From a virus, in the IMG/VR virus record IMGVR_UViG_3300030061_002429, positions 37,689 to 101,688 of that record: a DNA stretch of 64,000 nucleotides. One strand, written 5' to 3'. Position numbers and translations under genes: made by a program. The notes below the pieces were generated by a model. That model did no database searches, had not been told where the DNA came from, and saw nothing but the letters and a program-made list of their open reading frames with translations. The first letter of the stretch is position 1, and every line of letters begins with the position of its first letter. Positions 18,401 to 61,166 of the stretch are shown here, in pieces.

Positions 18401-21400
18401 CACGCTTAGGACCGACGTTTAGTGACCATGAATACGACCATATCAGTCAAAACTCCGTAGGCGAAGCCTTCCCCGATATGACACGAAAGGGTTGGAAGTC
18501 GGCAACCAACAATGCACCACTAAAGACATCGTACGAACTGCATGACCGAGCCTTGTTCTTCCACATTACCAAGAACGGTAACTCGCACACGCATCGCTAT
18601 CCTACAATCTACACACACGATAATGGTGTCATCAACAACGCTCTCACGGCACAGACGTATTCAGGCACTACTTTAACAGTGAATGCAACTATCAATACAA
18701 CATTGTATCGTGACGCATATGGTGATTCACAGAAAGACGATGGTGGTACACGTCGATTTTTACGCATATACGACGACGCAACTGGTGAAAGTGGTGTTGC
18801 CTCGTTCACTGGAATATCGACCAATACATTCACTGGTTGTGTAGGTGATTCAGCATTCGATGCTATTGTTGCTAAGAGCAGTATAACGTCATTCAGCGTC
18901 GTGCCTTCATACTACGTACCTGCTGGTAGTAACCGATTCTTTGCGGCACGTCGAATCCGTGACCATGCGGAAGTAAGCGGTAACAGCCCTGACATGGCAC
19001 ACTCGATGTATGTGACTGGACATGGTGGACCGAATGTATTGTGTTATGATGCATACAAAAAGACACGACTTACACCAATGGCAATTCCACGTATGGGTCA
19101 TCACTTCGTTAATGCTACGCAAGCCATGTTACCCGGACATTGGGCGCACCCTGCGTATCAAGGATTGTACTTTAAGCACCGAGCCGACCGTTCAGCAACG
19201 CAAAAGAATCTTGAGCAAGACCTCATTCAAAGCACTGCTCTCGATACCGATAGGTCGAACTTACCAGCAGATACCCAACGTAAGTTACCAGTCTATGACC
19301 CTATGATTACATTCGGCGCAATGACTGCTACACCAAGTGGTCCGAGTGATATTCACGGCGGTGGATTTACACTCATGTTTGAAACCAAAGTCAAGTACGA
19401 TGGCTATGGTGTGTTGGCTTCAAAAGGTCAAGCGGGTGTTGTAAACTCGAAAGGTGGTCATACTATTGTATTGGAAGCAGGTGCTACATATACCCTTAAG
19501 CATCACTTCCCTGACCCATCAGAAGTTGGTGCGTACCAAATCATCATTCAACCTAACGTACACAAGTCACAGTTTTACGGCTACCACGAAAACGGCAGTG
19601 CTACTGGACTACCTGATGGTTCGGTTAATGAATTAACTGGACAACAAGTAGCGTTAGTTATCGGTATACGTGAGCCTGATTCAGCCACAGGTGGACTTGG
19701 TTTGGTCTTAGCCGAAGCAACTATGGCCGATGTACGTGGTTGTGAAGTGTTCATCAATGAGGTTATGCTTGACCATGACCCTGATTATGGTGGACAACTG
19801 GCAAACATACCTCCGCTATTGCTGTACAATGCGTTAGGTGTACAAGGTACAGAAGCACCTGCATTTACACGACGAAGCCTACCGTATCACCCCGGTATGT
19901 TTGTCGATGCTACACCCGGCTTTACAACCAACATACCGTGGTGGTCAATCGTTCACAAAATAAGTCCTGAAGATTCATCAGCAGTAGGATTCCGTCATTT
20001 GACATGGCACAGAATTGATAATTACTACGAGTTCTTACGTGCTGGTGCTGGAAGCATTGCGTGTCAATTGACTCTTGCAGGTTATCCGTCCAACTATCCT
20101 GACTTCTATTCGACCGTATTAGAAAATGTTAGCCTCTCACCTGTTGCTGTGGTAAAGTCGGTGTCTTCAACGCTTATCACTGTCGATGATGCAAGAGGCT
20201 TTCCTAAAGTGCCATACTATGGTATGAAGTTGGAATACACTGATGCTGACGGTATTCGACGTACACATACATACACTGAACGCAGTGGTAATGATGCAAC
20301 ATACATGAACAAACCGTATAGATTCACCATTACTGCATCTTCAAATTTCACCAATAACCTTACTGTGGGAACAAAGATTCGCTTGACTCGTGCATATGAT
20401 TTCCGCCCTGCTGGAAAATTGATGAAGGAATCGAGGTCAAGTATTTTTACACGCATGTTACCTCAATTACTACAAGGTAGTCGTGATACAAACAGCCTTC
20501 ACATGGCTGATGCATATCTATGTTTATGGAATCCAAACCTTGGCCGACCGCACACATTTTATTCAGATGGAAGTCGTACATGGTTGAGTCCAACTGGTGA
20601 CAGGGCAGTTAATCGAAAACCACTGAACAGCCTACCTGAACACTATGAAACCATCCATTACCATGATGCAACATACTACAACAGTTTAGGTCCGTTTACT
20701 TTTACAATGAATACAACAAGACCGATTCAACCATTAGTTACACACGCACTAAGTGATAGGATAATCGTATCAACTGCGAGTAATGTCATAACAACGGCAC
20801 ATTCGCCACCATCATTACCAAATGATACGATTCAAATTGAAAATGAAATTTTTGTTGTTGTGAGCGATACAGGTGCTTTGCTAACTGTGAATCGTGACAT
20901 AACGCATCTTACAAATGGTAGTAAGATATACATTCATGGAGATGGGGATGCAGTAACAGCAGGTGGGTTGCATAGTGATTACACGGCTCAAGGTGGTACA
21001 GATGTCATGCTCAATCATTACTGGCCGTGTGGTAGTCGTGGTGGGCCGCTTACCAGTCGCCTTGATGGGTATGGGTATGTAAGCACTGCGTGGGATTATC
21101 CACAAGAGTATACATCAGACGGTCCTGTATGGGAAGACCAAGATGATACTGGTTCATACGTAGTAAGCAGTGGTATCACAAAAACATCGTATGATTCAAT
21201 CAGTAGCCCTACACGACCTCGACCCTTTGGTTACCGCTTCGGATTGCGACAACCCTACAATAAACCACAGTGGGCTATGTACGGTGCTCGTGCATATCGA
21301 GAAACGCCTATCTCTTCATCAAACACCATTGCGGGGTATCAGCATGGTCCTTTGGTGCAATTAGAAGAAAGAACTACTGGAAACAAGTGGGAATACGTTG

Positions 21401-23208
21401 GTGGAAGTGGTTTATCAAATACCGACTTTAATGCCACATACGTTGGTATTATGGAGCGTCAAACAAACTTCTCCGCTATGCTCGGTGTAGACAAACCTGA
21501 ATGGCAAGTACGATACAGTAACGGTATGCGTATGACACGAGCGTTTGGTTGCCCAGTACGTGTATTACGTAACGCAAACACCGTCATACGTGATTGGTGG
21601 GGTGACCCGCTTGGTAAGAACATCTCAAAGGTAGATGAAGCAGTAAAGTATTATCTTGTTGATTGGTGGGGCAACACTCGTGGTGAAGATGTACGACGTT
21701 ATCCTGTGCGTGGTTTTGGTATACGCCCTGCTTGGGATTGCAGTGACGTATACGAATATGACCGCACCAACGACCTAACTCCATACGCACGTCTATGGAA
21801 CGGCGGTAATCCACTGGTCAATCTCAAGACGCTTGTTGATTTTACAAGTTCAGACCTAACGGCCACCGATGTGAACTTCCCACGTATGGCGGGACGAATC
21901 AACAACGTGAACAACAACGATTCAGCAAATCCAGTCGATGTGTTCTTCCCAACCAACCCACATCGTGTCGGTGACATGGGTAACGGTCGAGGTGTACGCT
22001 ATCCGACCATGTTCAACGAAGATGTACTCACAGACCTTGATGAGCCGTATCACGCCACAGGGGTCGTTCTTTCGCACCATACTGCCGAGCCGAACACATC
22101 AGACGGGTACGTGCGCCCACGTAACGATGTACTGCAACCCAACGAAGTACTGCGTGGTATCAGTGCTCGGTTGGGTGTCGATGAAGATGGACTGCTCAAA
22201 CCCGAAGCCGTAGCAAGCGACCGTGTAGAAGACTTCACTGGTGACACACCGCACAAGGATGCTATCAGTCGGTCAAGCCCACGTATCGGTATTGACAGCG
22301 AGAACATCGAGGGTGTAGATGACAACCTTATTGCTATCAACACAGAAGCACACAGTCTTCACACAGACCGCAACGTAGGACAGCGAGTGGTTATGGAGGG
22401 TGGCTTGACCGCAGGTTCACAGACGCTTACCGATTACGACCTTACTGGTTTGACCTTCGCTGCACAGCCACAGGGTGGTGCAATGAGATTGACCCACACC
22501 TCCAACTTCAACCCAATGGGTGGTACATACCTCGCTGAAACCCGCAACTTCCTTGCACCTATCAGTGACAAAGATTGGGGCGGTATAAGTGGGTCAAACA
22601 AGACATCAAACCCGTACGAAACAAACGTACACGTAAGCAACAAGCAAACAAACTTGACCGACAAGAAAGTTACTTTCATGCTTAGACCAGTGCGATTGCT
22701 TGACAAGCAACACGTTGAGATGTTCCGACCAAACAACAACCTGCACTCATCATCCCCGCAATACGGCGCAAACTACTTTTCGGCTACTGCTGGTGGTAAG
22801 TATGGTATGTATGTGTATGAAGTAGAAAATGGTCGAGCAAGTTCAGGCTACTACATCCGTAGCACTAACCCCGACACCAATCCACCTTATGCGCCGTTGT
22901 ATGTCATGGACATTAGTGGTGACGAGTCTGTACCAGTAAGCAAAGGGCCAAAGTTGCCCGGTATCAGTGAAACATCATTCGATAGTACAAAACTCAACAA
23001 TGCGGTCACTCGTATTGTCATCAGCGAAAACACGCTCCAACACTATCGTGCTGATGCGGCACGTCGTCGCTCCCGCATTGACAGTGATGAAACAACAAAG
23101 CGTATGGACTTCTCCGTAGTACCACGATTCTCACAGGCACTTCATCCAAAAGGACATAAAGGTGATGTAACCTACAACACATCAGACCACACAGGTGATG
23201 GCGCATGA
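6478..23208 (+). CDS. giant virion/tail protein (5576 aa) with N-terminal LamG/concanavalin-A-like domain
   Basis: Uninterrupted ORF; FFFDGVSDSI, FVIEAWV, YHIVASY, LYVN, FRGAIESI form a LamG-like pattern. Confidence 0.8.
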   Translation: MVAIGRTSHAFFFDGVSDSIIIPQSTFNSTGIERNGVKAPLSALSDVELQNTIGNISYSDFVIEAWVIPDCGGIIAQRDGQFQLELGTVDTPGPAVFHLTMQTAFGDKTITLNTAFDKTTRWDGVVYPSQEYGGIHDSYNRFDTSNYGEASGLNFNNRPLYHIVASYRGGNIELYVNTDMVASKKVPIEYRVKQVDGHVYVGGKGGQFRGAIESIHFSNSKSNNIFQPDFPTLGNASTGLYRFEEPLDIVEKVYTMNAVTAATDGSTKTITIGTADAQELIAKLTGKAYDSSSPIATFTESPYSMGNYEVNDFYSTPGTTAKLSIAHTPYNLLINAGSLNRNTFKPNQKPPERVRLHSIDGSNGNISISSIHVDFVNGTSGLRGLLHSRTADIDNYFVVVGADLLIDNGTGKPYQPPHYGTQIFDRTGQMVLDESDSESHGLVYSSRMATTTSDPKNPFAVVWPTSIDTLFQIGHSGRHALSHITGHDYMRRLPVPNDMTVDQVMSGSSDIVTMRYDSSQRNLKNTISINKNVDAYSPNLKGSVKSFVNTSTVASIVDNGLPASVKELIAIGGAGFDVRPFFLKGPVPQSYDEESRLFHLRPEKESRIALLKVPALQSSHNLAPFVEIHYNAIDLTGASMGISGPMLMVEKTVPAGSFDLGSGTRVIDVITSDLANTVLYSAGGVIDFTTGYMGSNNVLSKPNSLVGDTTGGNDNDSELDFSTTPAVYTPVSDVNAIPASPPKVIKKSHVSSNHNSVYHKLYFTPSTNIITEEDQTFYRKIKPLTTKSSTGEFDIGPVNTRSHMFEMFDIIDNQSTNDNRTAILYVQPSNKKRTNQFYNLSTATNGQATRMHILQLITRGRIRSINQVVDGETNEIDTEIVIRGISDEYLSQNIDVLGSGSPDSHVVKEIEPNAPVVTVTLGGPGQGAVNTKPTFDPSPLMRLPGSTRRMCAVQGVEVFATNSSTSGVTDSLTIRPLNNQSPDLLSWGTYCFPKIGRVYLASGASALYYAKTGSGFAFENSATAISERRFLLSDGTAVESFYVWCKANGVITQSGATVTEEVSDYFYNDDNFNDDSLTQDGSTVNDRLFQSMDGVTHDYQLGSQYSSTRAMVEIPFFPQQFFDHENENVFPGPDNSMKIHIDATYTAHTWNPTPVGRRADDVQVADRTASSAYSYNINNQDYVSSTTITKVEYDSSGKFYKIYVSHPSLFPPVDTSVFEYTNMKKLPRYRRAFLANGMWCVYRNDPSSDGYLRVDEHESATSGVISGSYAKGFFEGAVPQTALFIAQGYRSENLLPIASDNETPSSDYEARSPYYYDNANVKTQGGNLDYGLRQYVSAIEIKAGPLVNPHAPRVQSGVAQSTILSVKGTSGKYVFNLEDASSFPVLTEYTKDVTNLLAIDEGDLMYIAEVRLADGTTHEMVYFGKLLEDKSENTIICKSANTSLTGLENATLSIKRVGRALHSAASVSTATDNERKALTFLPDTSEQWTVAVAATSGTTTTIEITTTASDRLASSNTIGLNIRKDDELYIDDVSHNDVDYLGKVSSIVSNVVGGTTNTVITLTTNNACDVAVGDKIRVSIQSVVAEDQDGILNATWLNPYATGGMRNGDTVWMNMTMNNPHAVEGLFCKSRGVYNEHLVWKGFNGGRGSLTSRPRDSIPLENFLIGDTCLETAQNLAQHINKTIEINYESMLGSTYTDIPRVAYVDPYLATEGHARVLLYDVAHDREFIAFHDLHMQVQSSAATPNIGFGRDIVHAGGVLKLDRFLVSHNGGAPHYFTTQIDVANGFPSENKYLRSTQQSKFIESAYAHDIANSSENFLIQDPTTRGNNIQLKGKGHGHFVHSGLMYGFNSNIYAVSDNALPRVEPAVASVYWANEKHKNSRITSRDAFVKAVKNHRLSKNPSTFSFRDASTLFDTPDGTRCISAFLSLKGIRSSTLDLSGHEEDRLEHLPHWTEMDFVRRMVIDCGEVGVKEGVTDIEAATREIVRLINQGSAKNGRTHARRPSQQYPGESENLDLTRIGVRQDVTSEAKDPSSAHINADFAATGSTYDPAPWWFVEEAFDTHDRGSHMGYVRAHIGRVVEDMNGNEGFSIVIHSTVPGASGRNFCVWLDNSKGQSNYKPQFLIGHGGRFRNFWCQPDETLGENMHPAPMPLNKHGRPFAPVTTLREYVLQEEPDEPFTNNHDVGNRKSNNSSENRNVSARIGGINHNTVSDESFEVQGLSTNLVEGLRAGKQAVGRINFGGLVASGVPGFAPDAGTHGFGRRGDERFDYKYGEAIKFGDSDPTAIASYTGHVNPSDVTEDAIGDSPLYGFRFTDHRGRGYGVRYVYRKFGQAFSDENTTLPSTLEDEVIIHINDDDVSMGGFTLGGHMLGWGDPTGRLDVSGLQLSKWRGNQWRGMYAPNAGVDAEVTWDGTANTLTVVFEAPFNTGASSSPLANHPDLLGYLGYPHTNGVIHLHDTFTGTTDKGVVGNALSYESRTVDDITGTHIFYGVRGESFVSSHYVSSGTVTDAIRTQPHASDNTMRVLLSSRINWTTLVTDEVLAYATNVAINHPNPNQEDGIAVDVRRLYACDGRTLGEWGVAEDAIIVRSHNPQRGATPISSMFSSKLHTDYAIQAAHLEYGEYETLAKDATGIYAFSSSSDAVHQPISDALLDKNRQIDAGYLPRTVLQIRTKGRGYHANTPTPILVDSFNDPVPVDAWRKNLKGITFTSTSGDHILPALNNEMLLFNHYQHSAKYFYHTTTDNGISHALIPAGQEGATIDTFAKEASFGEQKRFYFTDVQYALLNSIQGTNSLTRVEWGRDDFANQDWVDHFTANFSNEDHILMRFGNQKIGGRRSYGAVDAEPLVYFKGAKDSNDHSVPLYFGGGFSGVVLDINDGTENDYSSFYTHPYSNGPTGTAGIQNANEISTSFAIVDCNALLAFFPATPLLNQHRGSLTHPVANRNNVLSPDLAAGAHTRHTDTPAHVVARYTAGIVQQKPSPLVLRVANPNARYKDTDVGETHTTYIIFGPGQAFPFTEMTTVNSDEQPHPGYVVTTGNTWSKVPANKNLPNEIKNSDDKYGPPSSTYQSARQVFHWNTTWNWSPAQGIPNIGTTTGAGLIQRPEHGSHYGEHFTGHVAVTLNNLEDYRKAHPYKFVGAMYYGIAMGADLCFHMDGGYHPGGSWMDNQLSFNPPHVISDYKINRGHNIVHPSAFRVSGKLANNFVTGVSNENIALLYEDEFIVVDATRCQNGEELATVLGQSINEFPGSSAIKAMGGTFAPSMGNAMRQDRYGWIEMSFESYTVDGPPVAITSSKTILIASISGASQATLEQIPACGWLRTPDGGTTNVGSGDIPTFAPYHSREVVYDSGSSSYKVHFLLAPNRSSSLPLMESLRTYDDVEQGTYAAGLSHPDYAGGNPTAVYVWSKAGVHRFNNENDSTRDHMTQVHFSGIVDAIDRTRPVGAVGWAGERYSYLNSLKVGSEQYGAGLGAWHPMLGFSPYGPSNSCMTAFGHLAHSNPIPFSPEGINRINNQTIVSDAIISNIYSWKYGLPSTDDYYATDYAFEQADNSILGKQPVTYRDNSDDTFALPRSLHMPQGVYSRAFVVISYESEMALVAKHDRDGIKATGDWLSVSSKVNVDSVIPATAITFAGTTRWDERIHNPERFTAPANAGPNVEALVRKDGSDPFTMPQAEYPSAFNFGAPLANDEDLYNAEPCFNETGDLFYDIDISPGAFHLETSAGVERNLQLKYITGSTDASITSRYTISGARDFWGGDLNAFRLAEHSPARNFSIENIVWKRMDGGNLSLPAVNARGLGAVPFITRVSGGTAYTTGEKLFGNCRFSFETTNSAMYPIIQAQELSHPQIAARHPDELRNVLEIPNEELQFLAMSVVDDTGQEHSIEGGSPFGTIIRSFKQISDRTAEGLAPSEAGSGVEPNLKIQLPDADAIPGNIIVRSGFDRLQAYQNETMGTGGMLRPNIETGIEGIFTDATDGPRLGPTFSDHEYDHISQNSVGEAFPDMTRKGWKSATNNAPLKTSYELHDRALFFHITKNGNSHTHRYPTIYTHDNGVINNALTAQTYSGTTLTVNATINTTLYRDAYGDSQKDDGGTRRFLRIYDDATGESGVASFTGISTNTFTGCVGDSAFDAIVAKSSITSFSVVPSYYVPAGSNRFFAARRIRDHAEVSGNSPDMAHSMYVTGHGGPNVLCYDAYKKTRLTPMAIPRMGHHFVNATQAMLPGHWAHPAYQGLYFKHRADRSATQKNLEQDLIQSTALDTDRSNLPADTQRKLPVYDPMITFGAMTATPSGPSDIHGGGFTLMFETKVKYDGYGVLASKGQAGVVNSKGGHTIVLEAGATYTLKHHFPDPSEVGAYQIIIQPNVHKSQFYGYHENGSATGLPDGSVNELTGQQVALVIGIREPDSATGGLGLVLAEATMADVRGCEVFINEVMLDHDPDYGGQLANIPPLLLYNALGVQGTEAPAFTRRSLPYHPGMFVDATPGFTTNIPWWSIVHKISPEDSSAVGFRHLTWHRIDNYYEFLRAGAGSIACQLTLAGYPSNYPDFYSTVLENVSLSPVAVVKSVSSTLITVDDARGFPKVPYYGMKLEYTDADGIRRTHTYTERSGNDATYMNKPYRFTITASSNFTNNLTVGTKIRLTRAYDFRPAGKLMKESRSSIFTRMLPQLLQGSRDTNSLHMADAYLCLWNPNLGRPHTFYSDGSRTWLSPTGDRAVNRKPLNSLPEHYETIHYHDATYYNSLGPFTFTMNTTRPIQPLVTHALSDRIIVSTASNVITTAHSPPSLPNDTIQIENEIFVVVSDTGALLTVNRDITHLTNGSKIYIHGDGDAVTAGGLHSDYTAQGGTDVMLNHYWPCGSRGGPLTSRLDGYGYVSTAWDYPQEYTSDGPVWEDQDDTGSYVVSSGITKTSYDSISSPTRPRPFGYRFGLRQPYNKPQWAMYGARAYRETPISSSNTIAGYQHGPLVQLEERTTGNKWEYVGGSGLSNTDFNATYVGIMERQTNFSAMLGVDKPEWQVRYSNGMRMTRAFGCPVRVLRNANTVIRDWWGDPLGKNISKVDEAVKYYLVDWWGNTRGEDVRRYPVRGFGIRPAWDCSDVYEYDRTNDLTPYARLWNGGNPLVNLKTLVDFTSSDLTATDVNFPRMAGRINNVNNNDSANPVDVFFPTNPHRVGDMGNGRGVRYPTMFNEDVLTDLDEPYHATGVVLSHHTAEPNTSDGYVRPRNDVLQPNEVLRGISARLGVDEDGLLKPEAVASDRVEDFTGDTPHKDAISRSSPRIGIDSENIEGVDDNLIAINTEAHSLHTDRNVGQRVVMEGGLTAGSQTLTDYDLTGLTFAAQPQGGAMRLTHTSNFNPMGGTYLAETRNFLAPISDKDWGGISGSNKTSNPYETNVHVSNKQTNLTDKKVTFMLRPVRLLDKQHVEMFRPNNNLHSSSPQYGANYFSATAGGKYGMYVYEVENGRASSGYYIRSTNPDTNPPYAPLYVMDISGDESVPVSKGPKLPGISETSFDSTKLNNAVTRIVISENTLQHYRADAARRRSRIDSDETTKRMDFSVVPRFSQALHPKGHKGDVTYNTSDHTGDGA

Positions 23209-28362: not shown

Positions 28363-28519
28363 ACGCACTGTCAATCCAAAAGTGACCACACTCTTTGCAT
28401 TGCAACATGTGCAGTCGTTCTTTTTCACCGTCAATGTAGCGAGCAGTGAGCCTTCTCGGTATGTGCCAATGTGTGCATCTTCGGCACTTGACCTTCAAGC
28501 GGTCAAGCAAACGCCCCAT
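28346..28519 (-). CDS. zinc-ribbon protein (57 aa)
   Basis: MGRLLDRLKVKCRRC...QCKECGHFW; coupled to chaperonin stop; not in ORF track. Confidence 0.7.
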   Translation of the reverse strand: MGRLLDRLKVKCRRCTHWHIPRRLTARYIDGEKERLHMLQCKECGHFWIDSAFNRQS

Positions 28520-30039
28520 CACTCAACGCCTCGTCGTGCAATGATGTCATCAATGCGTAGGATAGCATTCGTGACTTCAGCCGCACTAAGCACTGCTTGA
28601 CGTACGAGTTCAGCAGGTTCAAGCACGCCCAACTTGAGCATGTCGCACACGCCTCCGTTCTCAACATCAGGACCAACCGTGAGGTCGCCGTCCATCAGAC
28701 GGTGACGTAGTTCAAGGATGGTATCGAGTGGGTCATGACCTGCATTCTCGGCAATGGTCGCAGGGATGGTTTCTAAGGCATCAGCAAACGCCTCAATAGC
28801 CATCTGTGCTCTACCCCCTACCTGTGCCGCATGTTGGCGTAGATAGACGGCCATACGAGCGTAGGCATTGCCTCCGCCCACGACGACCTTCTCATCACCA
28901 ATTACCATTGATACGACACCAAGAGCGTCATCAAATCCACGCTCGACTTCTTCCAGTGTGTGCGTGGTTGCACCACGCAAGATAAGCGTAGCCTCTTTGC
29001 TCTCCTTGTGATTTGAATGCACGAACAAATACCATATGTCGTTGTGCATCTCACGTACGACCTTTGTCATTGTCATGTCTTCGATGTCATCAACGGTTTG
29101 GTAGATGACACTGTTTGTAGCACGCTTCATGGCACGCATAGCGGATTCAGGCGTACGGCGTACAACATAGATACCGTTCTTCTTGAGGTACGCACAAACG
29201 TGGTCATTGACCCCATCACGTACGAAAACAATACCTACTTTACCTTTGAAAGCATCAACAATCTCTTTGGCTCTTGAAATCAAATCAGCCTTACCTGCCG
29301 ATTTGTATGTACTGTATGACTGTGCATCGAGTTGTACTTGCACGTTCTCTTCGTTCTTTTCAACATCAAGGCCAGTATTGATGAGCATCATGTGGTAGTA
29401 CTCGCTTGCATCAGACTCATCTTCAATCACGAAGTCCTTGCTCACAATGACACCGTTGAACAGGGATGAGTCATTGACCGAGCCACCCGGAAACGACACC
29501 ACACGCACAGACTTCGCATCACCCGCTTGCTCAACAGCCGATACACACAGTTCAGCCACTTGGTCAAGCGAATGCTCAAGTGTCTTACCAGTGATTGCTG
29601 TCTTAGCAACGGACAGTGTTTCATCTCGCCCTTCGGCAAGCATTGTAATTTCATCTTGCAAGTACTTGGTTGCCATTTGTGAAGCCTCGTGATACCCACG
29701 ACAAATCACATTCGGGTGCAAACCTTTAGCGAACAATGCTTCGGTATGTCCAAGCAATGCCCCTGAAAGTACGACTGTACTTGTTGTTCCGTCGTAGCAT
29801 AGGTTTTCTTGTGTCTTTGCTACTTCGGCAATCATCTTCCCGCCCGGATGTGAAACATCGACTTCACGGAGGATGGTAGCCCCGTCATTCGTTACGATGA
29901 CGTTGCCGTGTCCATCGACCAACATCTTGTCCATACCCATCGGTCCAAGCGTAGACTTGACGGTTTCAGCAATCGTCCTTGCCGCCCGTATGTTCATCGC
30001 TTGTGCATTCGTTCTTGTTTGTTCTGTATCTTTCTTCAA
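28519..30039 (-). CDS. ths: group II chaperonin (thermosome subunit)
   Basis: TLGPMGMDKML, TNDGATIL, DGTTS, ILRIDD. Confidence 0.95.
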   Translation of the reverse strand: MKKDTEQTRTNAQAMNIRAARTIAETVKSTLGPMGMDKMLVDGHGNVIVTNDGATILREVDVSHPGGKMIAEVAKTQENLCYDGTTSTVVLSGALLGHTEALFAKGLHPNVICRGYHEASQMATKYLQDEITMLAEGRDETLSVAKTAITGKTLEHSLDQVAELCVSAVEQAGDAKSVRVVSFPGGSVNDSSLFNGVIVSKDFVIEDESDASEYYHMMLINTGLDVEKNEENVQVQLDAQSYSTYKSAGKADLISRAKEIVDAFKGKVGIVFVRDGVNDHVCAYLKKNGIYVVRRTPESAMRAMKRATNSVIYQTVDDIEDMTMTKVVREMHNDIWYLFVHSNHKESKEATLILRGATTHTLEEVERGFDDALGVVSMVIGDEKVVVGGGNAYARMAVYLRQHAAQVGGRAQMAIEAFADALETIPATIAENAGHDPLDTILELRHRLMDGDLTVGPDVENGGVCDMLKLGVLEPAELVRQAVLSAAEVTNAILRIDDIIARRGVE

Positions 30040-56166: not shown

Positions 56167-57480
56167 TCACGCATCAGCCTCCGCCTTTTCCTTCTTCACA
56201 CGCTGGATGTGCAAAGGCAACTTAGGGAGGTTATCATACATACCACTGTAGTTGCTCTTGCTCGCAGGTGCTTTGAGAAATTCTTTGAACATGTCTTGGG
56301 GTGTGGGTAAATCTTCAACAAACACATCGGGCTTGAGTCGTAACTCGTAACTCATTCTCTCCAACACACTCGTTACCTGTTGGTCTGTGATGTTGAACTC
56401 TTCATCAACCTCTCGATACACTGGGTACGCACCCGATGGTAGTGGCAATGCTTCCACCAACATGTCCCTGTATTGTTGGGCAGTGGTTTTATCAGCAAAG
56501 ATGTAAGGTGTTGATACACTACTTGTATCGAAACGTGGGTAGTACTCCCACTTGTGTGTCGTGTAGTTGTATGAACGACTGTGACCTAACGTACCGCCAA
56601 CGACTGTGACTGAAAAGTACGTCAACTCCTCGACAGGTTTCCAGTGATACTTGTTCACCGCTATACCCCAATAGTCTGTCGTGTTCTTTACAGCATACTC
56701 CCAGCCGTTGATGGTGTCACCAATCTTACGGTTGAACGAGTTGCTTACAAGAACTTCTTGACGTACAGTTTCCAACCATGACCACTCTCGCCACTCGAAT
56801 GTACGACCTCGACCCACTGATGTTTGTCTACATCTTCCGTTCTTGACCATGCGATTGAAACCTTTGTTGATACAGCGAAGCAATTCTTTCTCACCATCCT
56901 TGTCAGTAAGCACTCGTATCAAACCACGCCAGTCTGAATCCGATACTTCTGTTAGGTGTTTGGTTGATTGCCAATTCCTAAAGTGTGAACGATTCTTCTC
57001 CCACGATGAAATCAACTTACCACGATACAGTGGGGTTAATGCACCTGTTGAGCCGTTGCTTTCTTTCATCTCCTTCCATGTGCTTCCACTGTTAATCCGT
57101 TCCAACAAATTCGTTCTCATGTGCCATGACATTCCACTCACCATCGGGTACTTACCGTGTTGCTCAAAGTACGCTTGATTCGTTTTGTCCTCGACCTTTG
57201 TATCAACGAGAGCAAACAATCGTGTGTCGTACCAAAAGGCACGTCGTGTCTGTTCGTTGATGCAATCCTTTGCTGTCACTTGCACATCAGGTCCGAGTGA
57301 CATCAGTGTATAGGTCAGCGCAATGTCCATTGCACATGACCTGCGACACATGTCTTTGGTCTTACCAATACCAAGTGTCGATATAATCTCATCATCGGTG
57401 AAGCGTAAGGATGTACCTACTAACCCTACCCTTTCCCATTCATTTGCGCTTCTATGTGTGTTGTGGTGTGTTCGTCCCAT
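56167..57480 (-). CDS. hypothetical protein (437 aa)
   Basis: Long ORF alone between promoter copies 7 and 6. Confidence 0.8.
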   Translation of the reverse strand: MGRTHHNTHRSANEWERVGLVGTSLRFTDDEIISTLGIGKTKDMCRRSCAMDIALTYTLMSLGPDVQVTAKDCINEQTRRAFWYDTRLFALVDTKVEDKTNQAYFEQHGKYPMVSGMSWHMRTNLLERINSGSTWKEMKESNGSTGALTPLYRGKLISSWEKNRSHFRNWQSTKHLTEVSDSDWRGLIRVLTDKDGEKELLRCINKGFNRMVKNGRCRQTSVGRGRTFEWREWSWLETVRQEVLVSNSFNRKIGDTINGWEYAVKNTTDYWGIAVNKYHWKPVEELTYFSVTVVGGTLGHSRSYNYTTHKWEYYPRFDTSSVSTPYIFADKTTAQQYRDMLVEALPLPSGAYPVYREVDEEFNITDQQVTSVLERMSYELRLKPDVFVEDLPTPQDMFKEFLKAPASKSNYSGMYDNLPKLPLHIQRVKKEKAEADA

Positions 57481-57493
57481 ATTTCTCATCTCC

Positions 57494-57515
57494 TTTCTCT
57501 TTGCCAGTTTATATA
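57494..57515 (-). promoter_or_regulatory. repeated promoter cassette copy 7
   Basis: TATATAAACTGGCAAAGAGAAA then GGAGATGA. Confidence 0.75.
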
Positions 57516-58763
57516 TCAGTTCTTACTTTTACAATCAAAGCATGTCACTGTGGAATCCGTAGTGTCAATCATATAGATGTAACGCACAGGCTTGTGCTTG
57601 AGGCACACAGTGCATTGCACTGTAGCCTCGTTGTCTTTCTTAGGTGGTTTGAATACCAGTGGTTTTGCACCAGTGCGTAGTTCAGCATTCGCACGTTCAA
57701 CAGTACAAGATGCACAGGAATCATCACCCTCCTCAATGTAATGCTCACGCACGTTGAGGTCACGGTCACAGTCTAAGCATATCTTCTTGTCTTTGCTCTC
57801 GGCTTCTCTCGTTGTGTCGTAATCACAATCCATACAGATACCGTAGTCATCCACATGGTCATTACCACAAGCAGGACACACGTATATCTTCACATCAGGT
57901 GCGCCACCAATAGCAAGGCCACAAGAAGGACAGTCACCATACTCGTAGTCTGTTGCGCTAAGAAAGTTGCCACAGCCTTCACAGATGTCATCATCATCTT
58001 GTGAACCTGTGGCCGACTCAAAATGTGTGTCGCCCCATTTCTTGTAGGGATTGTACCCAGTGTAGTACGAGGTGCTGTACTTCTCAATCTTCGCCTCCCC
58101 TACTGGTAGGTCACACACATCAGCGATGTACTGCTGTTGAGCAGTGGTTTCGACAGCGTGGTGGCAGTGTGCATCACGCACCCAATCAATGAGTTGCCCA
58201 GCAGTGGTGATGCCTGATGCCTCACGTTCTTCTGTGGTGAAAGTAAGATAGCGGAAGATGCACAACTGCACACCAGTCCGACCATGCCCACCCGCACACT
58301 GAACAGACACACGAGTAAGTTTATGCTCACGTATGTCATCAAGTAGTGCATACCAAAACAACACTGGTGAAGCAGGGATGCCAAAGTCGGGGAAGTCCAA
58401 GTGGATGAACAACGGTTCGGGTTCGGGCGAACCGACGAACTCGGCGCACGAGAAACCATCGGGTACAGTGGTGTCATCTGATGATGCAGGTGTACCATGC
58501 ATTGTTTCGCTCGGACCCATTGCAAGGTCGGGTAGTGGCGACATCTTGTGCCAACCACCTGCACGATTCTTACCACCGCCGAAGAAGGTGATGCCATCTG
58601 ATGTAGTAAAGATGGGCTTCTGTCCTGTGTGGCACGATGTCTTGTCCCACTTGTTTTTCTTCGTCGTTGTATTTGTAATTGGTTTCATGTTTTTTCCTCC
58701 TGTATTTTTCTTGTTCTTTCGTTGTTGCTTTCGTGTCTTGCGTTTGTTACGTCGTCCCATCAT
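57516..58763 (-). CDS. CX5R phosphatase with multiple C-terminal zinc ribbons
   Basis: FPDFGIP acid loop, VQCAGGHGRTG, VETTAQQQY; 8 CxxC motifs. Confidence 0.85.
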   Translation of the reverse strand: MMGRRNKRKTRKQQRKNKKNTGGKNMKPITNTTTKKNKWDKTSCHTGQKPIFTTSDGITFFGGGKNRAGGWHKMSPLPDLAMGPSETMHGTPASSDDTTVPDGFSCAEFVGSPEPEPLFIHLDFPDFGIPASPVLFWYALLDDIREHKLTRVSVQCAGGHGRTGVQLCIFRYLTFTTEEREASGITTAGQLIDWVRDAHCHHAVETTAQQQYIADVCDLPVGEAKIEKYSTSYYTGYNPYKKWGDTHFESATGSQDDDDICEGCGNFLSATDYEYGDCPSCGLAIGGAPDVKIYVCPACGNDHVDDYGICMDCDYDTTREAESKDKKICLDCDRDLNVREHYIEEGDDSCASCTVERANAELRTGAKPLVFKPPKKDNEATVQCTVCLKHKPVRYIYMIDTTDSTVTCFDCKSKN

Positions 58764-61117
58764 TCTTCCTCCGATGTAGTTACCTGCTGGAATGTGTCAA
58801 TGTATTCACTGCTGAACATGAGTGAATAGAAGTGAGCAAAGGCTTCACTCGATTTCTGTTTGTGGTATGGGGTCATCAAGTTCCATTTGCTTTCAATGTC
58901 CTTGCCCATGTCGAGAGTCTTGGTGATGAATGATTCATTCAATGTACCCTTACCTCGCAGTGCTTGCTTGAGTATGACCACACCCGCATACATGATGTTG
59001 GATTGTGTTTCATCAACAGTGGATATTGTTGGGAAGTCCAAGTCAAGTTTAGTTGCACTGGGCTTTATCTTGTACAATGGTAGGTCCATTTGGATGTTGT
59101 TGAATACCATGTCTTTACACTTCCCACAGTAGGCTGAACCACATGGAATGAATGTGTCCATTGTATGACTGCCGTTTGTACCGTGACCGTGGAACTTGTC
59201 GTACCCTACAATTGTATCTTCAAGTACCCGCATCTCTTTGGGTATGTCCTTGCGTACAAAGATAGGTTTGGTACGAAGGTCATCTTCCGATATGTTCTCA
59301 ACATACTTGAGGATGTGAGTAACGTCAGTGGATGGGAAGTCTGTGTCCTCATTGAATTGATACGCATCGAAAGCGGAGTAGTACACACGGAAGAATTCAT
59401 GAGGGTTCAAAACAATATTGGATGCATTAGTACCCCAGTCGAGTGCTGTCTTGGATAGGAACTTGTTGAAGAAGAAACCAGTGTTGTGTATGTTGTTCTC
59501 ACACAGGTTGGCTTCACCAATAACATCGAGCATGTTCTTCTCGGTAGGTTTGTTCATGTAACGCTTGATGGACTGTGCAAGTTTGAGTGTGTTGTCCACC
59601 GACTTCTTGTACTTCGCACCACCGTAACCATTCGACCAACCGCCGTAGTACTTCTTGCTCGTCCACTTGAGTAGTGCGATGATGGAGTCGAGGGTGATAG
59701 GTTCGTTCTCAATGGCTGTGTAGTAGTGCTTACGATTACCCGATAGAACGTCACCCGATTGTTTCTGTGCTTCCTTACCATAGATGGATGCAACCACGAG
59801 TGGTGTCATGTAGTTGTGCTTATCGGAACGCATACCTGCGGAGTGTCGCAACTCACCAACAGATACGGACAGCCCTGCATTGACAAGCCAACCGACAAAC
59901 ACACCACCGAAGAAGGCAGTGTTGGATGGGTCAATCAATGGCGCACCAATGAACTGATGGAAGTGATTGGAGAGCCAACCATGTTGGCGAGCGAAACGAT
60001 ACAGTCCTACGTTAAGTCCCTGCTTGAACGCATCACTGAACTCGAATGGATTGTATGGCATGGCCTTCAACTTCATGTTGGTTGTCACCCAACCCGATGC
60101 AACCTCTTTCCATGACTGTCCGACCTCAACCTCATTGACGATGTAAGGAACTCCATACTTACGGCACTGCCCTGCATGGTGGGACAGGTGAGATGCACCT
60201 GTACCAATGTGTGATACAACTGTACCCTTTGGTGGGTCGCTACGTAGCAACTCTTCAAGGCGAGCCAACTCTTCGTCGCCTGAATTGTGAACTGTGTGTA
60301 CGGCCTTGACCTTGACCTTACCTTGTGGAATCGAACCGTTGATGGTCACACCCGCAGGTGGAGTGAGCAGTGGAGTGTGTCCTGATGAGCCACGCAACTG
60401 AACGATGTAAGATGCGTGATTCACTGCATAAGAGTTACGAACATTGGTACGGTCTTTGTACCCATCACTCATTTGCGAGATAAATTCCAACTCAATGTGA
60501 GCAGGGTCAATGGAGAGTTCTTCCAAGTTTTTCCTTGTCGCATAGTCACCTGTATGTGGGAGAGCAAGGCGAAGGGTTGCGCTCCCTGCTGTGATACCAT
60601 CGTGGCTGTCACCCATCATGATGTATGAGTTGGGTGCAACAACTGCTGATGCATCAGCGTTGATGAATGGTTGAATAATGATGCAACCGAATGGGTCAAT
60701 GAGTCCGTGGTCGTATGCTGTAGTATCGGCTGTATCAACGGACAACATCTTGTCGATGATGCGAACAATGGTTTCACGCAACTCTTCTGTGGAATGTGCG
60801 GGTGATGACTCCAACACACCGGGGCGTGGAGTGAGTGGACACGCACGAACAAAGAGTGGTCTGTTCTTGGTGGGAGAACCAACATGTAGTTGGATGCTCT
60901 CAACTTGTTTGTCAATGAGTGCGTCGTCAAGGAAGACTCCCTTGAGTCTTTCACTCATCTCTTCATTACTAACCGTACTCGAAAGTGCTTCCACGAGTTT
61001 TAAATCTTCTACGAGATTGATACGATGGGTGACAAGTGGTTGCCAATACCCACTCATCATCCCTGCTTCGTGTGCCTTCGTGTACTTCGCCAATGCTTCT
61101 GCCTTCTGTGATGTCAT
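58760..61117 (-). CDS. PEP-synthase/PPDK-like dikinase (ATP-grasp + phospho-His swivel + unknown C-terminal domain)
   Basis: FVRAC...PGVLES, IIQPFINA..SAV, IELEF, YIVQLRG, LSHHAGQCRKYGVPYIV. Confidence 0.7.
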   Translation of the reverse strand: MTSQKAEALAKYTKAHEAGMMSGYWQPLVTHRINLVEDLKLVEALSSTVSNEEMSERLKGVFLDDALIDKQVESIQLHVGSPTKNRPLFVRACPLTPRPGVLESSPAHSTEELRETIVRIIDKMLSVDTADTTAYDHGLIDPFGCIIIQPFINADASAVVAPNSYIMMGDSHDGITAGSATLRLALPHTGDYATRKNLEELSIDPAHIELEFISQMSDGYKDRTNVRNSYAVNHASYIVQLRGSSGHTPLLTPPAGVTINGSIPQGKVKVKAVHTVHNSGDEELARLEELLRSDPPKGTVVSHIGTGASHLSHHAGQCRKYGVPYIVNEVEVGQSWKEVASGWVTTNMKLKAMPYNPFEFSDAFKQGLNVGLYRFARQHGWLSNHFHQFIGAPLIDPSNTAFFGGVFVGWLVNAGLSVSVGELRHSAGMRSDKHNYMTPLVVASIYGKEAQKQSGDVLSGNRKHYYTAIENEPITLDSIIALLKWTSKKYYGGWSNGYGGAKYKKSVDNTLKLAQSIKRYMNKPTEKNMLDVIGEANLCENNIHNTGFFFNKFLSKTALDWGTNASNIVLNPHEFFRVYYSAFDAYQFNEDTDFPSTDVTHILKYVENISEDDLRTKPIFVRKDIPKEMRVLEDTIVGYDKFHGHGTNGSHTMDTFIPCGSAYCGKCKDMVFNNIQMDLPLYKIKPSATKLDLDFPTISTVDETQSNIMYAGVVILKQALRGKGTLNESFITKTLDMGKDIESKWNLMTPYHKQKSSEAFAHFYSLMFSSEYIDTFQQVTTSEEE

Positions 61118-61144
61118 ACTTTAACCTCCATTGTTTTCATCCTC

Positions 61145-61166
61145 TTTCTCTTTGCCGATTTATAAA
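61145..61166 (-). promoter_or_regulatory. repeated promoter cassette copy 8
   Basis: TTTATAAATCGGCAAAGAGAAA then GAGGATGA. Confidence 0.8.

What the first reader, a model, noticed from the sequence alone, without database searches (positions are those of the whole stretch)
57516..61117. Coupled dikinase-like enzyme and CX5R phosphatase: candidate viral phospho-writer/eraser pair
Seen: one unit between promoter copies 8 and 7 holds two genes joined by an ATGA overlap. The 785-aa protein has PEP-synthase/PPDK-type ATP-grasp motifs (FVRAC, IQPFI, IELEF, IVQLR) and a phospho-His swivel motif (LSHHAGQCRKYGVP versus canonical SHAAIVARExGIP). Its C-terminal half is not a recognisable PEP/pyruvate barrel and carries CGSAYCGKC. 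The partner is a CAGGHGR phosphatase with a basic N-terminus and 8 CxxC motifs. Known: this dikinase chemistry is reused on other acceptors (rifampin phosphotransferase, glucan-water dikinase), and glucan phosphorylation is reversed by CX5R phosphatases. Inference: a reversible phosphorylation system acting on an unknown substrate such as a host protein, nucleotide signal, nucleic acid end or glycan.
Basis: partly seen in the sequence, partly recalled or inferred. Interest (0 to 1): 0.82.

Follow-up and report, generated by a model that had tools for sequence, protein, structure and literature searches.

The report
Conserved viral dikinase–phosphatase gene module
An archaeal-virus operon encodes a very divergent ATP-driven "dikinase" fused to a previously unnamed helical domain, followed by a tyrosine-phosphatase-like enzyme; the same parts travel together in hundreds of viruses, including cultured bacteriophages, and their target is unknown.

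Summary
A 785-aa ORF (58760-61117, minus strand) and a 415-aa ORF (57516-58763) overlap by ATGA. They sit between two copies of a nine-copy TATA-type promoter motif in a magrovirus-like archaeal virus.

The partner has the WPD-like, CX5R and Q-loop motifs of classical tyrosine phosphatases, a basic tail and four zinc ribbons.

The phosphatase gene is adjacent in 85 of 85 related loci. It is also adjacent in 66 of 67 loci of a clade only 22-36% identical.

Cultured Vibrio, Stenotrophomonas, Rhizobium and Rhodobacter phages carry the same set as three genes: a canonical PPDK_N+swivel "kinase", the phosphatase, and a stand-alone homolog of the helical domain (hhalign 96%).

Most likely this is one phosphotransfer module acting on a shared, universal substrate. 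"Writer/eraser" is plausible but unproven. The substrate was not identified, and RNA-ligase co-occurrence does not support end-healing as a general function.

The module appears undescribed. Published genome reports annotate its parts separately, and partly wrongly.

The parts
61144..61164 (-). Promoter-like motif (TATA box plus GGCAAAGAGAAAG), eighth copy by coordinate, 27 nt upstream of the dikinase start codon
   Evidence: 9 copies on the minus strand, 0 expected; a GGAGG lies just before the ATG.
58760..61117 (-). Gene for the 785-aa dikinase-like fusion protein (K785)
   Evidence: ORF; family of >110 close and about 1000 distant representatives; model pLDDT 87.8, pTM 0.82.
60353..61117 (-). 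Residues 1-255: ATP-grasp nucleotide-binding domain of PPDK_N type (R91, R98-P-G100, E209-x-E211, Q240-x-R242)
60071..60352 (-). Residues 256-349: phospho-histidine swivel domain; candidate catalytic His313 (codon 60179-60181) in LSHHAGQC
59198..60070 (-). Residues 350-640: all-helical domain, presumed acceptor site; motifs GE422xR424H425, R462, W494xxGY498GGxxY503, N537xxExxxH544N545xxxxxxK552
   Evidence: domain model pLDDT 86.5; no specific PDB match; motifs invariant across the superfamily; hhalign 96.4% (E 1.2e-9) to the stand-alone phrog_20946 proteins of cultured phages.
59117..59191 (-). Residues 643-667: H-x15-C-x4-C-x2-C (includes CGSAYCGKC), a probable zinc site specific to the magrovirus subfamily
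   Evidence: H643, C659, C664 and C667 are invariant in 82 sequences; present in only about 21 of 109 distant members.
58763..59029 (-). Residues 697-785: variable acidic C-terminal helical bundle
   Evidence: helices, after a disordered linker at 686-696; distant homologs stop aligning near residue 667-700.
58760..58763 (-). ATGA stop/start overlap joining the two genes
57516..58763 (-). Gene for the 415-aa phosphatase (PTP415)
   Evidence: family of >175 proteins.
58644..58763 (-). Residues 1-40: lysine/arginine-rich tail (pI 12.0)
58074..58643 (-). Residues 41-230: PTP catalytic core. KNRxGGW (66-71), FPD126FGIP (WPD-like loop), C156AGGHGR162TG (P-loop; Cys codon 58296-58298), Q209Q210 (Q-loop)
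   Evidence: the family profile hits only classical PTPs in the PDB (RPTP-alpha E 8e-6); these residues are invariant. PF22784 E 2.8e-4 and phrog_17568 E 2.7e-10; distant partners pass the Pfam cut-offs.
57519..58001 (-). Residues 255-415: acidic region with eight CxxC motifs, read as four zinc ribbons
   Evidence: positions 261-411; the cysteines are conserved; weak zinc-ribbon Pfam hits.
57493..57513 (-). Next promoter-like motif (seventh copy by coordinate), directly after the phosphatase stop; it heads the following gene (56167-57489)

Best explanation
The two genes form one bicistronic phosphotransfer module of a magrovirus-like archaeal virus.

K785 most likely works like rifampin phosphotransferase, PEP synthase and PPDK. 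The ATP-grasp binds ATP. His313 on the swivel domain takes the beta-phosphate, releasing AMP and Pi. The swivel then carries the phosphate to the fused helical domain. There a polar pocket (E422/R424/H425, R462, W494/Y498/G499-G500/Y503, N537/H544/N545/K552) positions an acceptor hydroxyl.

PTP415 is made from the same transcript by coupled translation. It is an active cysteine phosphatase with a general-acid Asp and a Q-loop. It removes a phosphate from the same substrate, either resetting the mark or completing a two-step conversion.

The same three parts occur in viruses of marine Euryarchaeota, Proteobacteria, Acidobacteria and Chloroflexi, and no fourth gene is conserved beside them. The substrate is therefore probably universal or virus-borne. 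My leading guess is a nucleic acid, nucleotide or nucleic-acid-bound component, with an aryl (Tyr-type) phosphate second.

Shown here: the folds, the motif conservation, the linkage, and the homology of the helical domain to a separate gene in cultured phages. Inferred: catalysis, the direction of transfer, that both enzymes share a substrate, and the substrate class.

For: Conservation. R91, Q240, R242 and H313, and the helical-domain motifs, are kept in 82 close and 109 distant members.

Phosphatase. The PTP motifs are invariant and the family profile hits classical PTPs. Distant partners pass Pfam cut-offs.

Linkage. ATGA overlap inside one promoter-bounded unit. Phosphatase gene adjacent in 85/85 loci and 66/67 distant loci. 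Only these two genes are conserved in the neighbourhood.

Cultured phages. They carry canonical PPDK_N+PEP-utilizers, then the PTP, then a helical-domain protein. The helical protein is found in 41 phage records from the same four host genera as the full-length dikinase hits, at identical counts (Vibrio 34, Stenotrophomonas 4, Rhizobium 2, Rhodobacter 1).

Precedents. Dikinase chemistry on non-pyruvate acceptors is established for RPH (PMC4844700) and HpeHI (PMC12167813).
Against: No sequence method links K785 to known dikinases. Pfam finds nothing. The PF00391 and PF01326 models do not hit the genome even at E 10. A family profile against PDB sequences finds nothing. hhalign against PpsA and against the cultured-phage dikinases is non-significant. 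The PEP-utilizer His signature, as I recall it, is absent. The dikinase assignment therefore rests on a predicted structure.

The helical domain has no informative structural relative, so nothing identifies the acceptor.

A writer and an eraser expressed together look futile unless the cycle itself is the function. No biochemical data exist.
Confidence: 0.55

Rival explanations
1. End-healing or phosphate relocation on broken nucleic acid, as in T4 polynucleotide kinase-phosphatase. The dikinase would phosphorylate a 5'-OH, and the PTP-fold enzyme would remove a 3'- or 2',3'-cyclic phosphate (or a 5' tri/diphosphate) so that a ligase can seal the break. This would counter host nucleases. It is a special case of 'same substrate, different phosphates'.
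For: In locus L127 a T4 Rnl1-type RNA ligase gene (PF09511, E 5.5e-19) directly precedes and overlaps the dikinase-like gene, and an ATP-dependent DNA ligase lies 3 kb downstream. The substrate would be universal, which fits the host breadth. The phosphatase carries a basic tail and zinc ribbons. The module sits among replication and repair genes: SNF2 helicase, PD-(D/E)XK nuclease, AAA_25. From general knowledge, PTP-fold enzymes acting on RNA 5' ends exist (baculovirus BVP, PIR1).
Against: Ligases do not travel with the module. Rnl1 is in 2/49 records, the PF09414 family in 11/50 and RtcB in 5/50. That gives 15/50 with any RNA ligase, and none among the 14 magrovirus-like records searched, G000 included; many records rated complete lack all of them. 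ATP-dependent DNA ligase turns up only as weak hits inside about 1,900-aa ORFs of the magrovirus group, plus one phage. No dikinase is known to act on polynucleotide ends. The zinc-ribbon region is acidic (pI 4.5).
Confidence: 0.15
2. A PTS-like phosphorelay. The swivel His~P would pass its phosphate, at the helical domain, to Cys156 of the PTP-like protein. That protein would act as a phospho-carrier or phosphotransferase towards a final acceptor rather than as a hydrolase.
For: The swivel domain is the fold of PTS Enzyme I. The RPH paper notes similarity of RPH subdomains to PTS parts (PMC4844700). His-to-Cys transfer onto P-loop cysteines is established in PTS EIIB proteins (general knowledge). 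The strict one-to-one linkage and translational coupling suit a complex.
Against: The invariant general-acid Asp126 and the Gln209-Gln210 Q-loop are the hallmarks of hydrolytic classical PTPs, where the Gln positions the attacking water. Some phages carry two PTP genes per module, which fits enzymes better than a stoichiometric carrier. No complex prediction could be run.
Confidence: 0.08
3. An auxiliary metabolic gene: a genuine pyruvate phosphate dikinase or PEP synthase that boosts host central carbon metabolism, as published for the related gene of Vibrio phage vB_VneS_J26.
For: GenBank records and PMC12038007 annotate the cultured-phage homologs of the N-terminal part as PPDK. The fold of residues 1-349 matches PPDK and PEPS.
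Against: There is no PEP/pyruvate-binding TIM barrel. K785's C-terminal half is helical. The cultured-phage proteins have PF01326 and PF00391 but not PF02896, whereas E. coli PpsA relatives have all three. The constant association with a PTP and with the helical domain has no place in PEP synthesis.
Confidence: 0.03
4. Two unrelated neighbours: the dikinase-like and phosphatase genes act independently and are adjacent only by shared ancestry of the genomes.
For: Close magrovirus relatives are broadly syntenic here (the SNF2 helicase and the 440-, 106- and 201-aa genes are also kept), so adjacency among close relatives alone proves little.
Against: Adjacency persists in a clade only 22-36% identical, on otherwise unrelated phage genomes of 17-448 kb. 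There, no other neighbour is conserved: the pair is kept in 50/50 and 49/50 loci, while the next true cluster covers 9. Adjacency also survives gene-order changes (phosphatase upstream, or on the opposite strand) and the splitting of the dikinase into separate genes in cultured phages.
Confidence: 0.03

Closest known systems
Rifampin phosphotransferase (RPH-Lm; PDB 5hv1/5hv2/5hv3)
   Different: The domain order is grasp-acceptor-swivel in RPH and grasp-swivel-acceptor here. The acceptor domains show no detectable similarity (RPH is absent from the domain searches; only a sub-threshold language-model lead to 'Rph_4th', score 0.83). Identity is 14-15% and there is no HMM-level relationship. RPH has no phosphatase partner.
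Pyruvate phosphate dikinase / PEP synthase (PDB 1kbl, 2ols; Pfam PF01326 + PF00391 + PF02896)
   Different: The third domain is not the PEP/pyruvate TIM barrel. The Pfam models do not detect K785, and the His signature is divergent.
Glucan water dikinase with SEX4/LSF2, or laforin (starch/glycogen phosphorylation cycle)
   Same: From general knowledge, this is the only established case of a His-swivel dikinase and a CX5R phosphatase acting on one substrate. Both steps are needed together for turnover, which shows that co-expressing writer and eraser need not be futile.
   Different: No carbohydrate-binding module was detected in either protein. Those phosphatases are dual-specificity type, whereas PTP415 carries classical-PTP WPD and Q loops. 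The genes are eukaryotic and unlinked.
Phage 'PPDK/kinase' + PTP + phrog_20946 gene sets of Vibrio phages SIO-2, VHS1 and J26, Stenotrophomonas DLP3/DLP5, Rhodobacter RcZahn, Rhizobium RHph_Y1_11
   Same: The phosphatase core is homologous (A2 profile E 2.6e-7 to 1.6e-14). The helical domain is homologous (hhalign 96.4%, E 1.2e-9; A5 HMM down to 5e-13). The same three functions lie within about 4 kb, in a replication-gene context.
   Different: There the ATP-grasp and swivel are canonical (PF01326 E 1e-45, PF00391 E 2e-19). They are encoded separately from the helical protein, with 1-3 small genes in between and often a second PTP. Their dikinase has its own unrelated 190-215-aa tail. The hosts are bacteria.
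Classical protein tyrosine phosphatases (PTP1B, RPTP-alpha; PF00102) and PF22784 PTP-SAK
   Same: WPD-like loop (FPDFGIP, 30 residues before the Cys), CX5R-(S/T)-G P-loop, and a Q-loop 53 residues after the Cys. Only classical PTPs are hit in the PDB.
   Different: The core is only about 190 aa. The window protein scores below the Pfam cut-offs (21.4 against 27 bits; 17.2 against 20.9). It carries a basic tail and four zinc ribbons.
Two-component aryl dikinases (phenylphosphate synthase; HpeHI, PDB 9goj)
   Different: The match is weaker than to RPH, they have no helical domain of this type, they are catabolic bacterial enzymes, and they have no phosphatase partner.

Membership tests
PEP-utilising His-swivel dikinases (PPDK/PEPS/RPH/GWD superfamily) | N-terminal ATP-grasp of PPDK_N type | tested here: met
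PEP-utilising His-swivel dikinases (PPDK/PEPS/RPH/GWD superfamily) | Mobile phospho-histidine domain with an invariant catalytic His preceded by Ser/Thr | tested here: met
PEP-utilising His-swivel dikinases (PPDK/PEPS/RPH/GWD superfamily) | Sequence-profile membership (PF00391 / PROSITE-type His signature) | tested here: not met
   PF00391 gives no hit at E<=10, and Pfam finds no family at E<=1. The signature pattern, recalled from memory, is absent in K785 but present in 4 of 5 cultured-phage dikinases. hhalign is non-significant, although its best local alignment does pair H313 with the TSH histidine.
PEP-utilising His-swivel dikinases (PPDK/PEPS/RPH/GWD superfamily) | ATP -> AMP + Pi with beta-phosphate transfer through His | not testable with these tools
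   Requires biochemistry.
Genuine PPDK / PEP synthase | C-terminal PEP/pyruvate-binding TIM barrel (PF02896) | tested here: not met
   Residues 350-785 are all-helical in two independent models. There is no PF02896 hit, whereas E. coli PpsA relatives carry it.
Rifampin phosphotransferase family | RIF-binding domain between grasp and swivel, with a C-terminal His domain | tested here: not met
   The order here is grasp-swivel-helical. Similarity of the helical domain to the RIF-binding domain is inconclusive: it is absent from the top rows, with only an atlas lead at 0.83. PF27448 is not in the local Pfam copy.
Cysteine-based protein tyrosine phosphatases (class I, classical-type core) | CX5R(S/T) P-loop | tested here: met
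   C156-AGGHG-R162-T-G, invariant in 69 sequences. It aligns to the PTP P-loop.
Cysteine-based protein tyrosine phosphatases (class I, classical-type core) | General-acid Asp on a WPD-type loop, and a Q-loop glutamine | tested here: met
   FPD126FGIP aligns with WPDFGVP of RPTP-alpha, and Q209/Q210 align with the QTxxQ region. D126 and Q209 are invariant; Q210 is nearly invariant, at 90% or more.
Cysteine-based protein tyrosine phosphatases (class I, classical-type core) | Passes curated family thresholds | tested here: inconclusive
   The window protein is below the cut-offs (PF22784 21.4 against 27 bits; PF00102 17.2 against 20.9). Homologous partners pass them: PF22784 at 43.6 and 39.5 bits, PF00102 at 27.4 bits. 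The family profile against the PDB gives E 8e-6.
phrog_20946 (unnamed phage protein family) | Helical domain with the RE.RH / W..GYGG..W / HNNG..FNK motifs | tested here: met
   hhalign of A3 against five members gives 96.4%, E 1.2e-9 over 154 columns. The PHROG HMM itself did not report K785 at E<=0.01, so membership is at superfamily level.
Magrovirus-like archaeal virus (genomic context) | About 100-kb genome with archaeal-type replication genes, a thermosome and an SNF2 helicase | tested here: met
   The record is 101,688 bp. It carries PolB, an RFC-like ATPase, a PD-(D/E)XK nuclease, a thermosome-type Cpn60/TCP-1 and SNF2. TATA-type promoters are present. PMC5434244 reports SNF2 in group A and a thermosome in groups A and D. 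No capsid or polymerase phylogeny was done.

The most novel reading that the evidence does not exclude
The triad (ATP-grasp/His-swivel engine, helical 'ERH-WGYGGW-HNNG-NK' domain, PTP-type phosphatase) is a virus-specific, ATP-driven phosphorylation-dephosphorylation machine. It acts on nucleic acid or a nucleotide-derived molecule. That would make it a previously unrecognised kind of genome, RNA or immune-signal modification used from archaeal viruses to bacteriophages, for example as a counter-defence. The helical domain would be a new phosphotransferase fold.
Probability: 0.25. Interest if true: 0.9.

Novelty: new variant of a known kind. Interest (0 to 1): 0.75.

Why it matters
Three parts with catalytic-looking, invariant residues are kept together across about 1000 sequence clusters. 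Their hosts span two domains of life. The family was found almost only in viruses: the close family is absent from 185,579 species genomes, and the distant clade is present in 5.

No database names the fused protein or the helical domain. Published genome reports file the pieces as "PPDK", "thymidylate synthase", "membrane protein" or auxiliary metabolism.

Recognising them as one module corrects those annotations. It defines a new acceptor domain for the His-swivel dikinase engine. It also points to cultured, tractable phages (SIO-2, VHS1-like vibriophages, DLP3/DLP5, RcZahn) in which the substrate can be found.

If the target is nucleic acid or an immune signal, this would be a new viral modification or counter-defence chemistry. 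If it is a protein tyrosine, it would be a kinase-independent route to phosphotyrosine.

Tried and rejected
- Pfam, PHROGs and PDB sequence searches with K785 alone or as a family profile found nothing. tblastn against 50,697 phage records also found nothing.
- The PF00391 and PF01326 models gave no match in the genome at E<=10.
- hhalign of the family against a shallow E. coli PpsA profile was non-significant. So was hhalign against five cultured-phage dikinases. The last homolog search returned only PpsA relatives at >=85% identity, so no deep profile could be built.
- The protein-atlas lead 'Rph_4th' scored 0.83, below the level where it counts. It could not be tested because PF27448 is not in the local library.
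- No fused dikinase-PTP protein was found among 150 representatives.
- The C-terminal tail of the cultured-phage dikinases shows no similarity to K785's helical domain.
- The RNA-repair idea was tested through co-occurrence of Rnl1, Rnl2-type, RtcB and ATP-dependent DNA ligases. Support was weak.
- Bacillus phage G gp139, the best BFVD match, is a canonical 365-aa PPDK_N+swivel protein without the module's partners nearby. I did not treat it as a member.
- Nineteen distant superfamily members carry no Pfam family that passes its threshold.
Linkage was tested through the search for related loci instead.
- Earlier scan notes held nothing similar by sequence.

Full report
**What is there.** The window is bases 37689-101688 of a 101,688-bp IMG/VR virus record rated 94% complete. 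On the minus strand, a 785-aa ORF (58760-61117, "K785") is followed by a 415-aa ORF (57516-58763, "PTP415"). The stop of the first and the start of the second share ATGA.

A 21-nt motif, TATAAAYNGGCAAAGAGAAAG, occurs nine times in the window. All copies are on the minus strand, and shuffles expect none. One copy ends 27 nt before the K785 start, and a GGAGG precedes the ATG. The next copy lies directly after the PTP415 stop and heads the following gene.

**Genomic setting.** Neighbouring genes include:
- an SNF2 helicase (PF00176, E 1.7e-41);
- a family-B DNA polymerase;
- an RFC-like AAA+ ATPase;
- a PD-(D/E)XK nuclease;
- a thermosome-type Cpn60/TCP-1 chaperonin.

Together with the TATA-type promoters, the roughly 100-kb size and the marine (Tara/JGI) origin of all relatives, this matches the magroviruses of Marine Group II archaea. 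For those viruses an SNF2 helicase is reported in group A and a thermosome in groups A and D (PMC5434244). The two magrovirus papers I checked mention neither a dikinase nor this phosphatase.

**The 785-aa protein.** Sequence methods are blind to it:
- no Pfam family at E<=1 and no PHROG;
- no PDB sequence hit, even with a family profile;
- no hit of the PF00391 or PF01326 models at E<=10.

It does have more than 110 full-length relatives. An 82-sequence alignment gave a confident AlphaFold2 model (pLDDT 87.8, pTM 0.82). Foldseek's best PDB matches are the three known His-swivel dikinase families: rifampin phosphotransferase (E 6e-5, prob 0.99), PPDK and PEP synthase.

They are invariant: R91, R98/G100, E211, Q240, R242 and S312-H313. 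I file residues 1-349 as a dikinase engine at fold level. Sequence-profile membership fails, and the assignment rests on a predicted structure.

**The C-terminal half.** Residues 350-785 are helical in the full model. They are helical again when residues 350-690 are folded alone from an independent 80-sequence alignment (pLDDT 86.5, pTM 0.87). This is not a PEP/pyruvate TIM barrel.

The domain carries many invariant polar and aromatic residues:
- E422-x-R424-H425;
- R462;
- W494-xx-G-Y498-G-G-xx-Y503;
- N537...H544-N545...K552.

The magrovirus subfamily adds an H643/C659/C664/C667 site, which includes CGSAYCGKC and is probably a zinc site.

**The phosphatase.** PTP415 has three parts: a 40-residue basic tail (pI 12), a core of about 190 residues, and an acidic tail with eight CxxC motifs.

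The core aligns to classical PTPs across three catalytic loops. FPD126FGIP pairs with WPDFGVP, C156AGGHGR162TG with CSAGVGRTG, and Q209-Q210 with the Q-loop. A 69-sequence profile hits only classical PTPs in the PDB (best E 8e-6). The catalytic residues D126, C156, R162 and Q209 are invariant, and Q210 is kept in 90% or more.

The window protein itself falls below the Pfam cut-offs, but homologous partners elsewhere pass them (PF22784 43.6 bits; PF00102 27.4 bits). Its best PHROG, phrog_17568, is labelled "thymidylate synthase". That label traces to GenBank annotations of the small PTP genes in phages SIO-2 and DLP5 and is almost certainly wrong.

**Linkage.** In viral and metagenomic loci carrying a K785 relative with at least 1.5 kb of downstream sequence, a PTP415 homolog follows on the same strand in all 85. 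The script counted 82; in the other three the match merely begins up to 73 nt before the stop. Gaps range from -73 to +152 nt, and K785 identity falls as low as 30%. Loci found starting from the phosphatase show the dikinase gene upstream wherever there is room.

A profile search of 1.84 billion representative proteins found 1010 relatives (778 at E<=1e-10). None of the 19 I scanned has a Pfam family that passes its threshold. Across 109 distant members, H313 (108/109), R91, Q240, R242 and the helical-domain motifs remain essentially invariant.

A clade only 22-36% identical gave 67 viral loci on contigs of 17-448 kb. A PTP gene is adjacent in 66; the exception is a contig that ends there. It usually lies directly downstream. 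In three loci it lies upstream, and in one there are two copies on the other strand. In these genomes nothing else in the neighbourhood is conserved: 50/50 and 49/50 loci for the pair, against 9 for the next real family. Neighbours such as an Sf6-type small terminase, AAA_25 and a class II aminoacyl-tRNA synthetase mark these as tailed bacteriophages.

The close family is absent from 185,579 species genomes. The distant clade occurs in five bacterial genomes (Chloroflexi, Acidobacteria including one isolate, Salinarimonas, Thioalkalivibrio). The PTP gene is adjacent in the four that have room for it.

**The link to cultured phages.** This is the most informative result. A paper on Vibrio phage vB_VneS_J26 calls its ORF98 a PPDK and its ORF100 a tyrosine phosphatase (PMC12038007).

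ORF98 and its relatives occur in SIO-2, RcZahn, RHph_Y1_11 and DLP5. They are 645-734-aa proteins with canonical PF01326 and PF00391 domains but no PF02896 barrel (domain scan run on the J26 protein). Each is followed, after one to three small genes, by a PTP whose core matches my phosphatase profile (E 2.6e-7 to 1.6e-14).

Each PTP is followed in turn by a 337-357-aa protein annotated as hypothetical or "membrane protein" (phrog_20946, function unknown). That protein is homologous to K785's helical domain:
- the distant-clade HMM scores it at E 5e-13 to 1e-5;
- hhalign of the K785 domain profile against five of them gives 96.4% probability (E 1.2e-9, 154 columns, K785 residues 365-554);
- the GE.RH, W..GYGG and HNNG..FNK motifs are aligned.

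This helical protein is found in 41 phage records: Vibrio 34, Stenotrophomonas 4, Rhizobium 2 and Rhodobacter 1. The dikinase hits show the same counts for those four genera, and the helical gene lies about 3 kb from the dikinase gene in the records I compared.

The module is therefore a triad: dikinase engine, PTP and helical domain. In the window's family the first and third are fused. This supports the fold-based reading of K785's N-terminal half from a second, independent direction. It also shows that the helical domain is a discrete functional unit.

**How it most likely works.** By analogy with RPH, PPDK and PEPS (PMC4844700), ATP binds the grasp domain and His313 takes the beta-phosphate, leaving AMP and Pi. 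The swivel then delivers the phosphate to the helical domain, where the invariant Glu/Arg/His/Asn/Lys and aromatic residues would hold an acceptor hydroxyl. In RPH, an Arg-Glu pair of the acceptor domain contacts the phosphate and the catalytic His. E422-x-R424 may play the same role here; that is inference.

PTP415 has an intact general acid and Q-loop, so it looks hydrolytic. It would take a phosphate off the same molecule. Whether that is the phosphate K785 put on (a true writer/eraser cycle, as in starch phosphorylation by GWD and SEX4) or another one (a two-step conversion) cannot be decided here.

The triad serves viruses of Euryarchaeota and of several bacterial phyla, and no target gene is conserved beside it. 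The substrate should therefore be universal or virus-borne, which argues against lipids, cell walls and lineage-specific signalling proteins. Three things make a nucleic-acid-linked or nucleotide substrate my first guess:
- the basic tail and zinc ribbons of PTP415;
- the recurrence of zinc ribbons on a distant partner;
- the replication-gene context.

**Rivals tested.** One distant locus has a T4 Rnl1-type RNA ligase directly upstream of the dikinase gene. That prompted a PNKP-like end-healing hypothesis.

Across 50 module-bearing virus records, Rnl1 occurs in 2, PF09414-type ligases in 11 and RtcB in 5. That is 15 with any RNA ligase, none of them magrovirus-like. ATP-dependent DNA ligase appears only as weak matches inside about 1,900-aa ORFs of the magrovirus group, plus one phage. 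End-healing is therefore not supported as the general function, although host ligases could serve.

A PTS-like His-to-Cys relay is conceivable but fits poorly with the hydrolytic PTP loops. The published "PPDK auxiliary metabolic gene" reading fails because there is no PEP/pyruvate domain. Chance adjacency is excluded by the linkage data.

**Novelty and limits.** The fold classes are known. Three things are new as far as the held literature shows:
- recognition of a strictly linked viral triad;
- a large, virus-restricted, unannotated dikinase family;
- a new helical acceptor domain.

Genome reports list the pieces without connecting them.

The limits are these. No biochemistry exists. The dikinase assignment depends on predicted structures. 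PTP415 itself was not folded. Locus counts include some duplicate contigs held in more than one collection.

Noticed in passing
window 32054-63802, minus strand (nine sites listed): A 21-nt TATA-box-plus-GGCAAAGAGAAAG motif occurs 9 times (0 expected). It heads successive minus-strand gene units, which suggests one co-regulated, probably early or replication-phase, transcription class with archaeal-type promoters.
   Followed up: partly
phrog_17568; L193:5506-5982 (Vibrio phage SIO-2 VPEG_00063); L195:5869-6339 (DLP5 gp080): The PHROG family and the GenBank products labelled 'thymidylate synthase' are small PTP-type phosphatases (A2 profile E 2.6e-7 and 2.3e-11; the homologous J26 gene hits PF22784). 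The label looks like a propagated mis-annotation.
   Followed up: yes
L192:14495-16570 (Vibrio phage vB_VneS_J26 ORF98) and relatives: The published 'pyruvate phosphate dikinase' auxiliary metabolic gene has PPDK_N and PEP-utilizers domains but no PEP/pyruvate-binding domain (PF02896). It belongs to the triad described here, so the metabolic interpretation is doubtful. The 'putative membrane protein' two genes downstream is the helical-domain homolog.
   Followed up: yes
L194 (RcZahn gp9 and gp11); DLP3 gp139 and gp141 (PMC7326821); L166:2576-4554: Several phages carry two PTP-type genes per module. In L166 both lie on the opposite strand, upstream of the dikinase gene.
   Followed up: partly
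G000:C1:29468-29719 (outside the window) and the equivalent sites in 10 of the 13 other magrovirus-like records searched: Weak ATP-dependent DNA ligase domain matches (PF01068, E 4e-6 to 4e-4) lie inside ORFs of about 1,800-2,400 aa. A ligase module may be embedded in a giant polyprotein.
   Followed up: no
window 6478-23208 (+): A single 5,576-aa ORF, very large for a 100-kb virus. Earlier first-stage notes on this genome describe repeated peptide tags in such polyproteins.
   Followed up: no
window 28519-30039 (-): A virus-encoded thermosome-type chaperonin (PF00118, E 1.4e-124).
   Followed up: no
A3 members (C-terminal parts of K785 homologs): 13 of 80 homologs give weak RING/C3HC4 zinc-finger hits (best E 0.0015) near the H-C-C-C site. 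Some family members may carry a larger zinc-finger insert there.
   Followed up: no
L125, L128, L133, L134, L156, L159, L166 (e.g. L133:9501-10058): A stand-alone RapZ C-terminal-domain-like protein (PF22740, E 7e-16) recurs within a few kb of the module in 7 distant-clade loci. A DUF7296 protein recurs in another 7.
   Followed up: partly
window 56167-57489 (-): The 440-aa gene after the phosphatase has no Pfam or PHROG match. It is conserved downstream of the pair in many magrovirus-like loci (27-61% identity), while in others the SNF2 helicase takes that place.
   Followed up: partly
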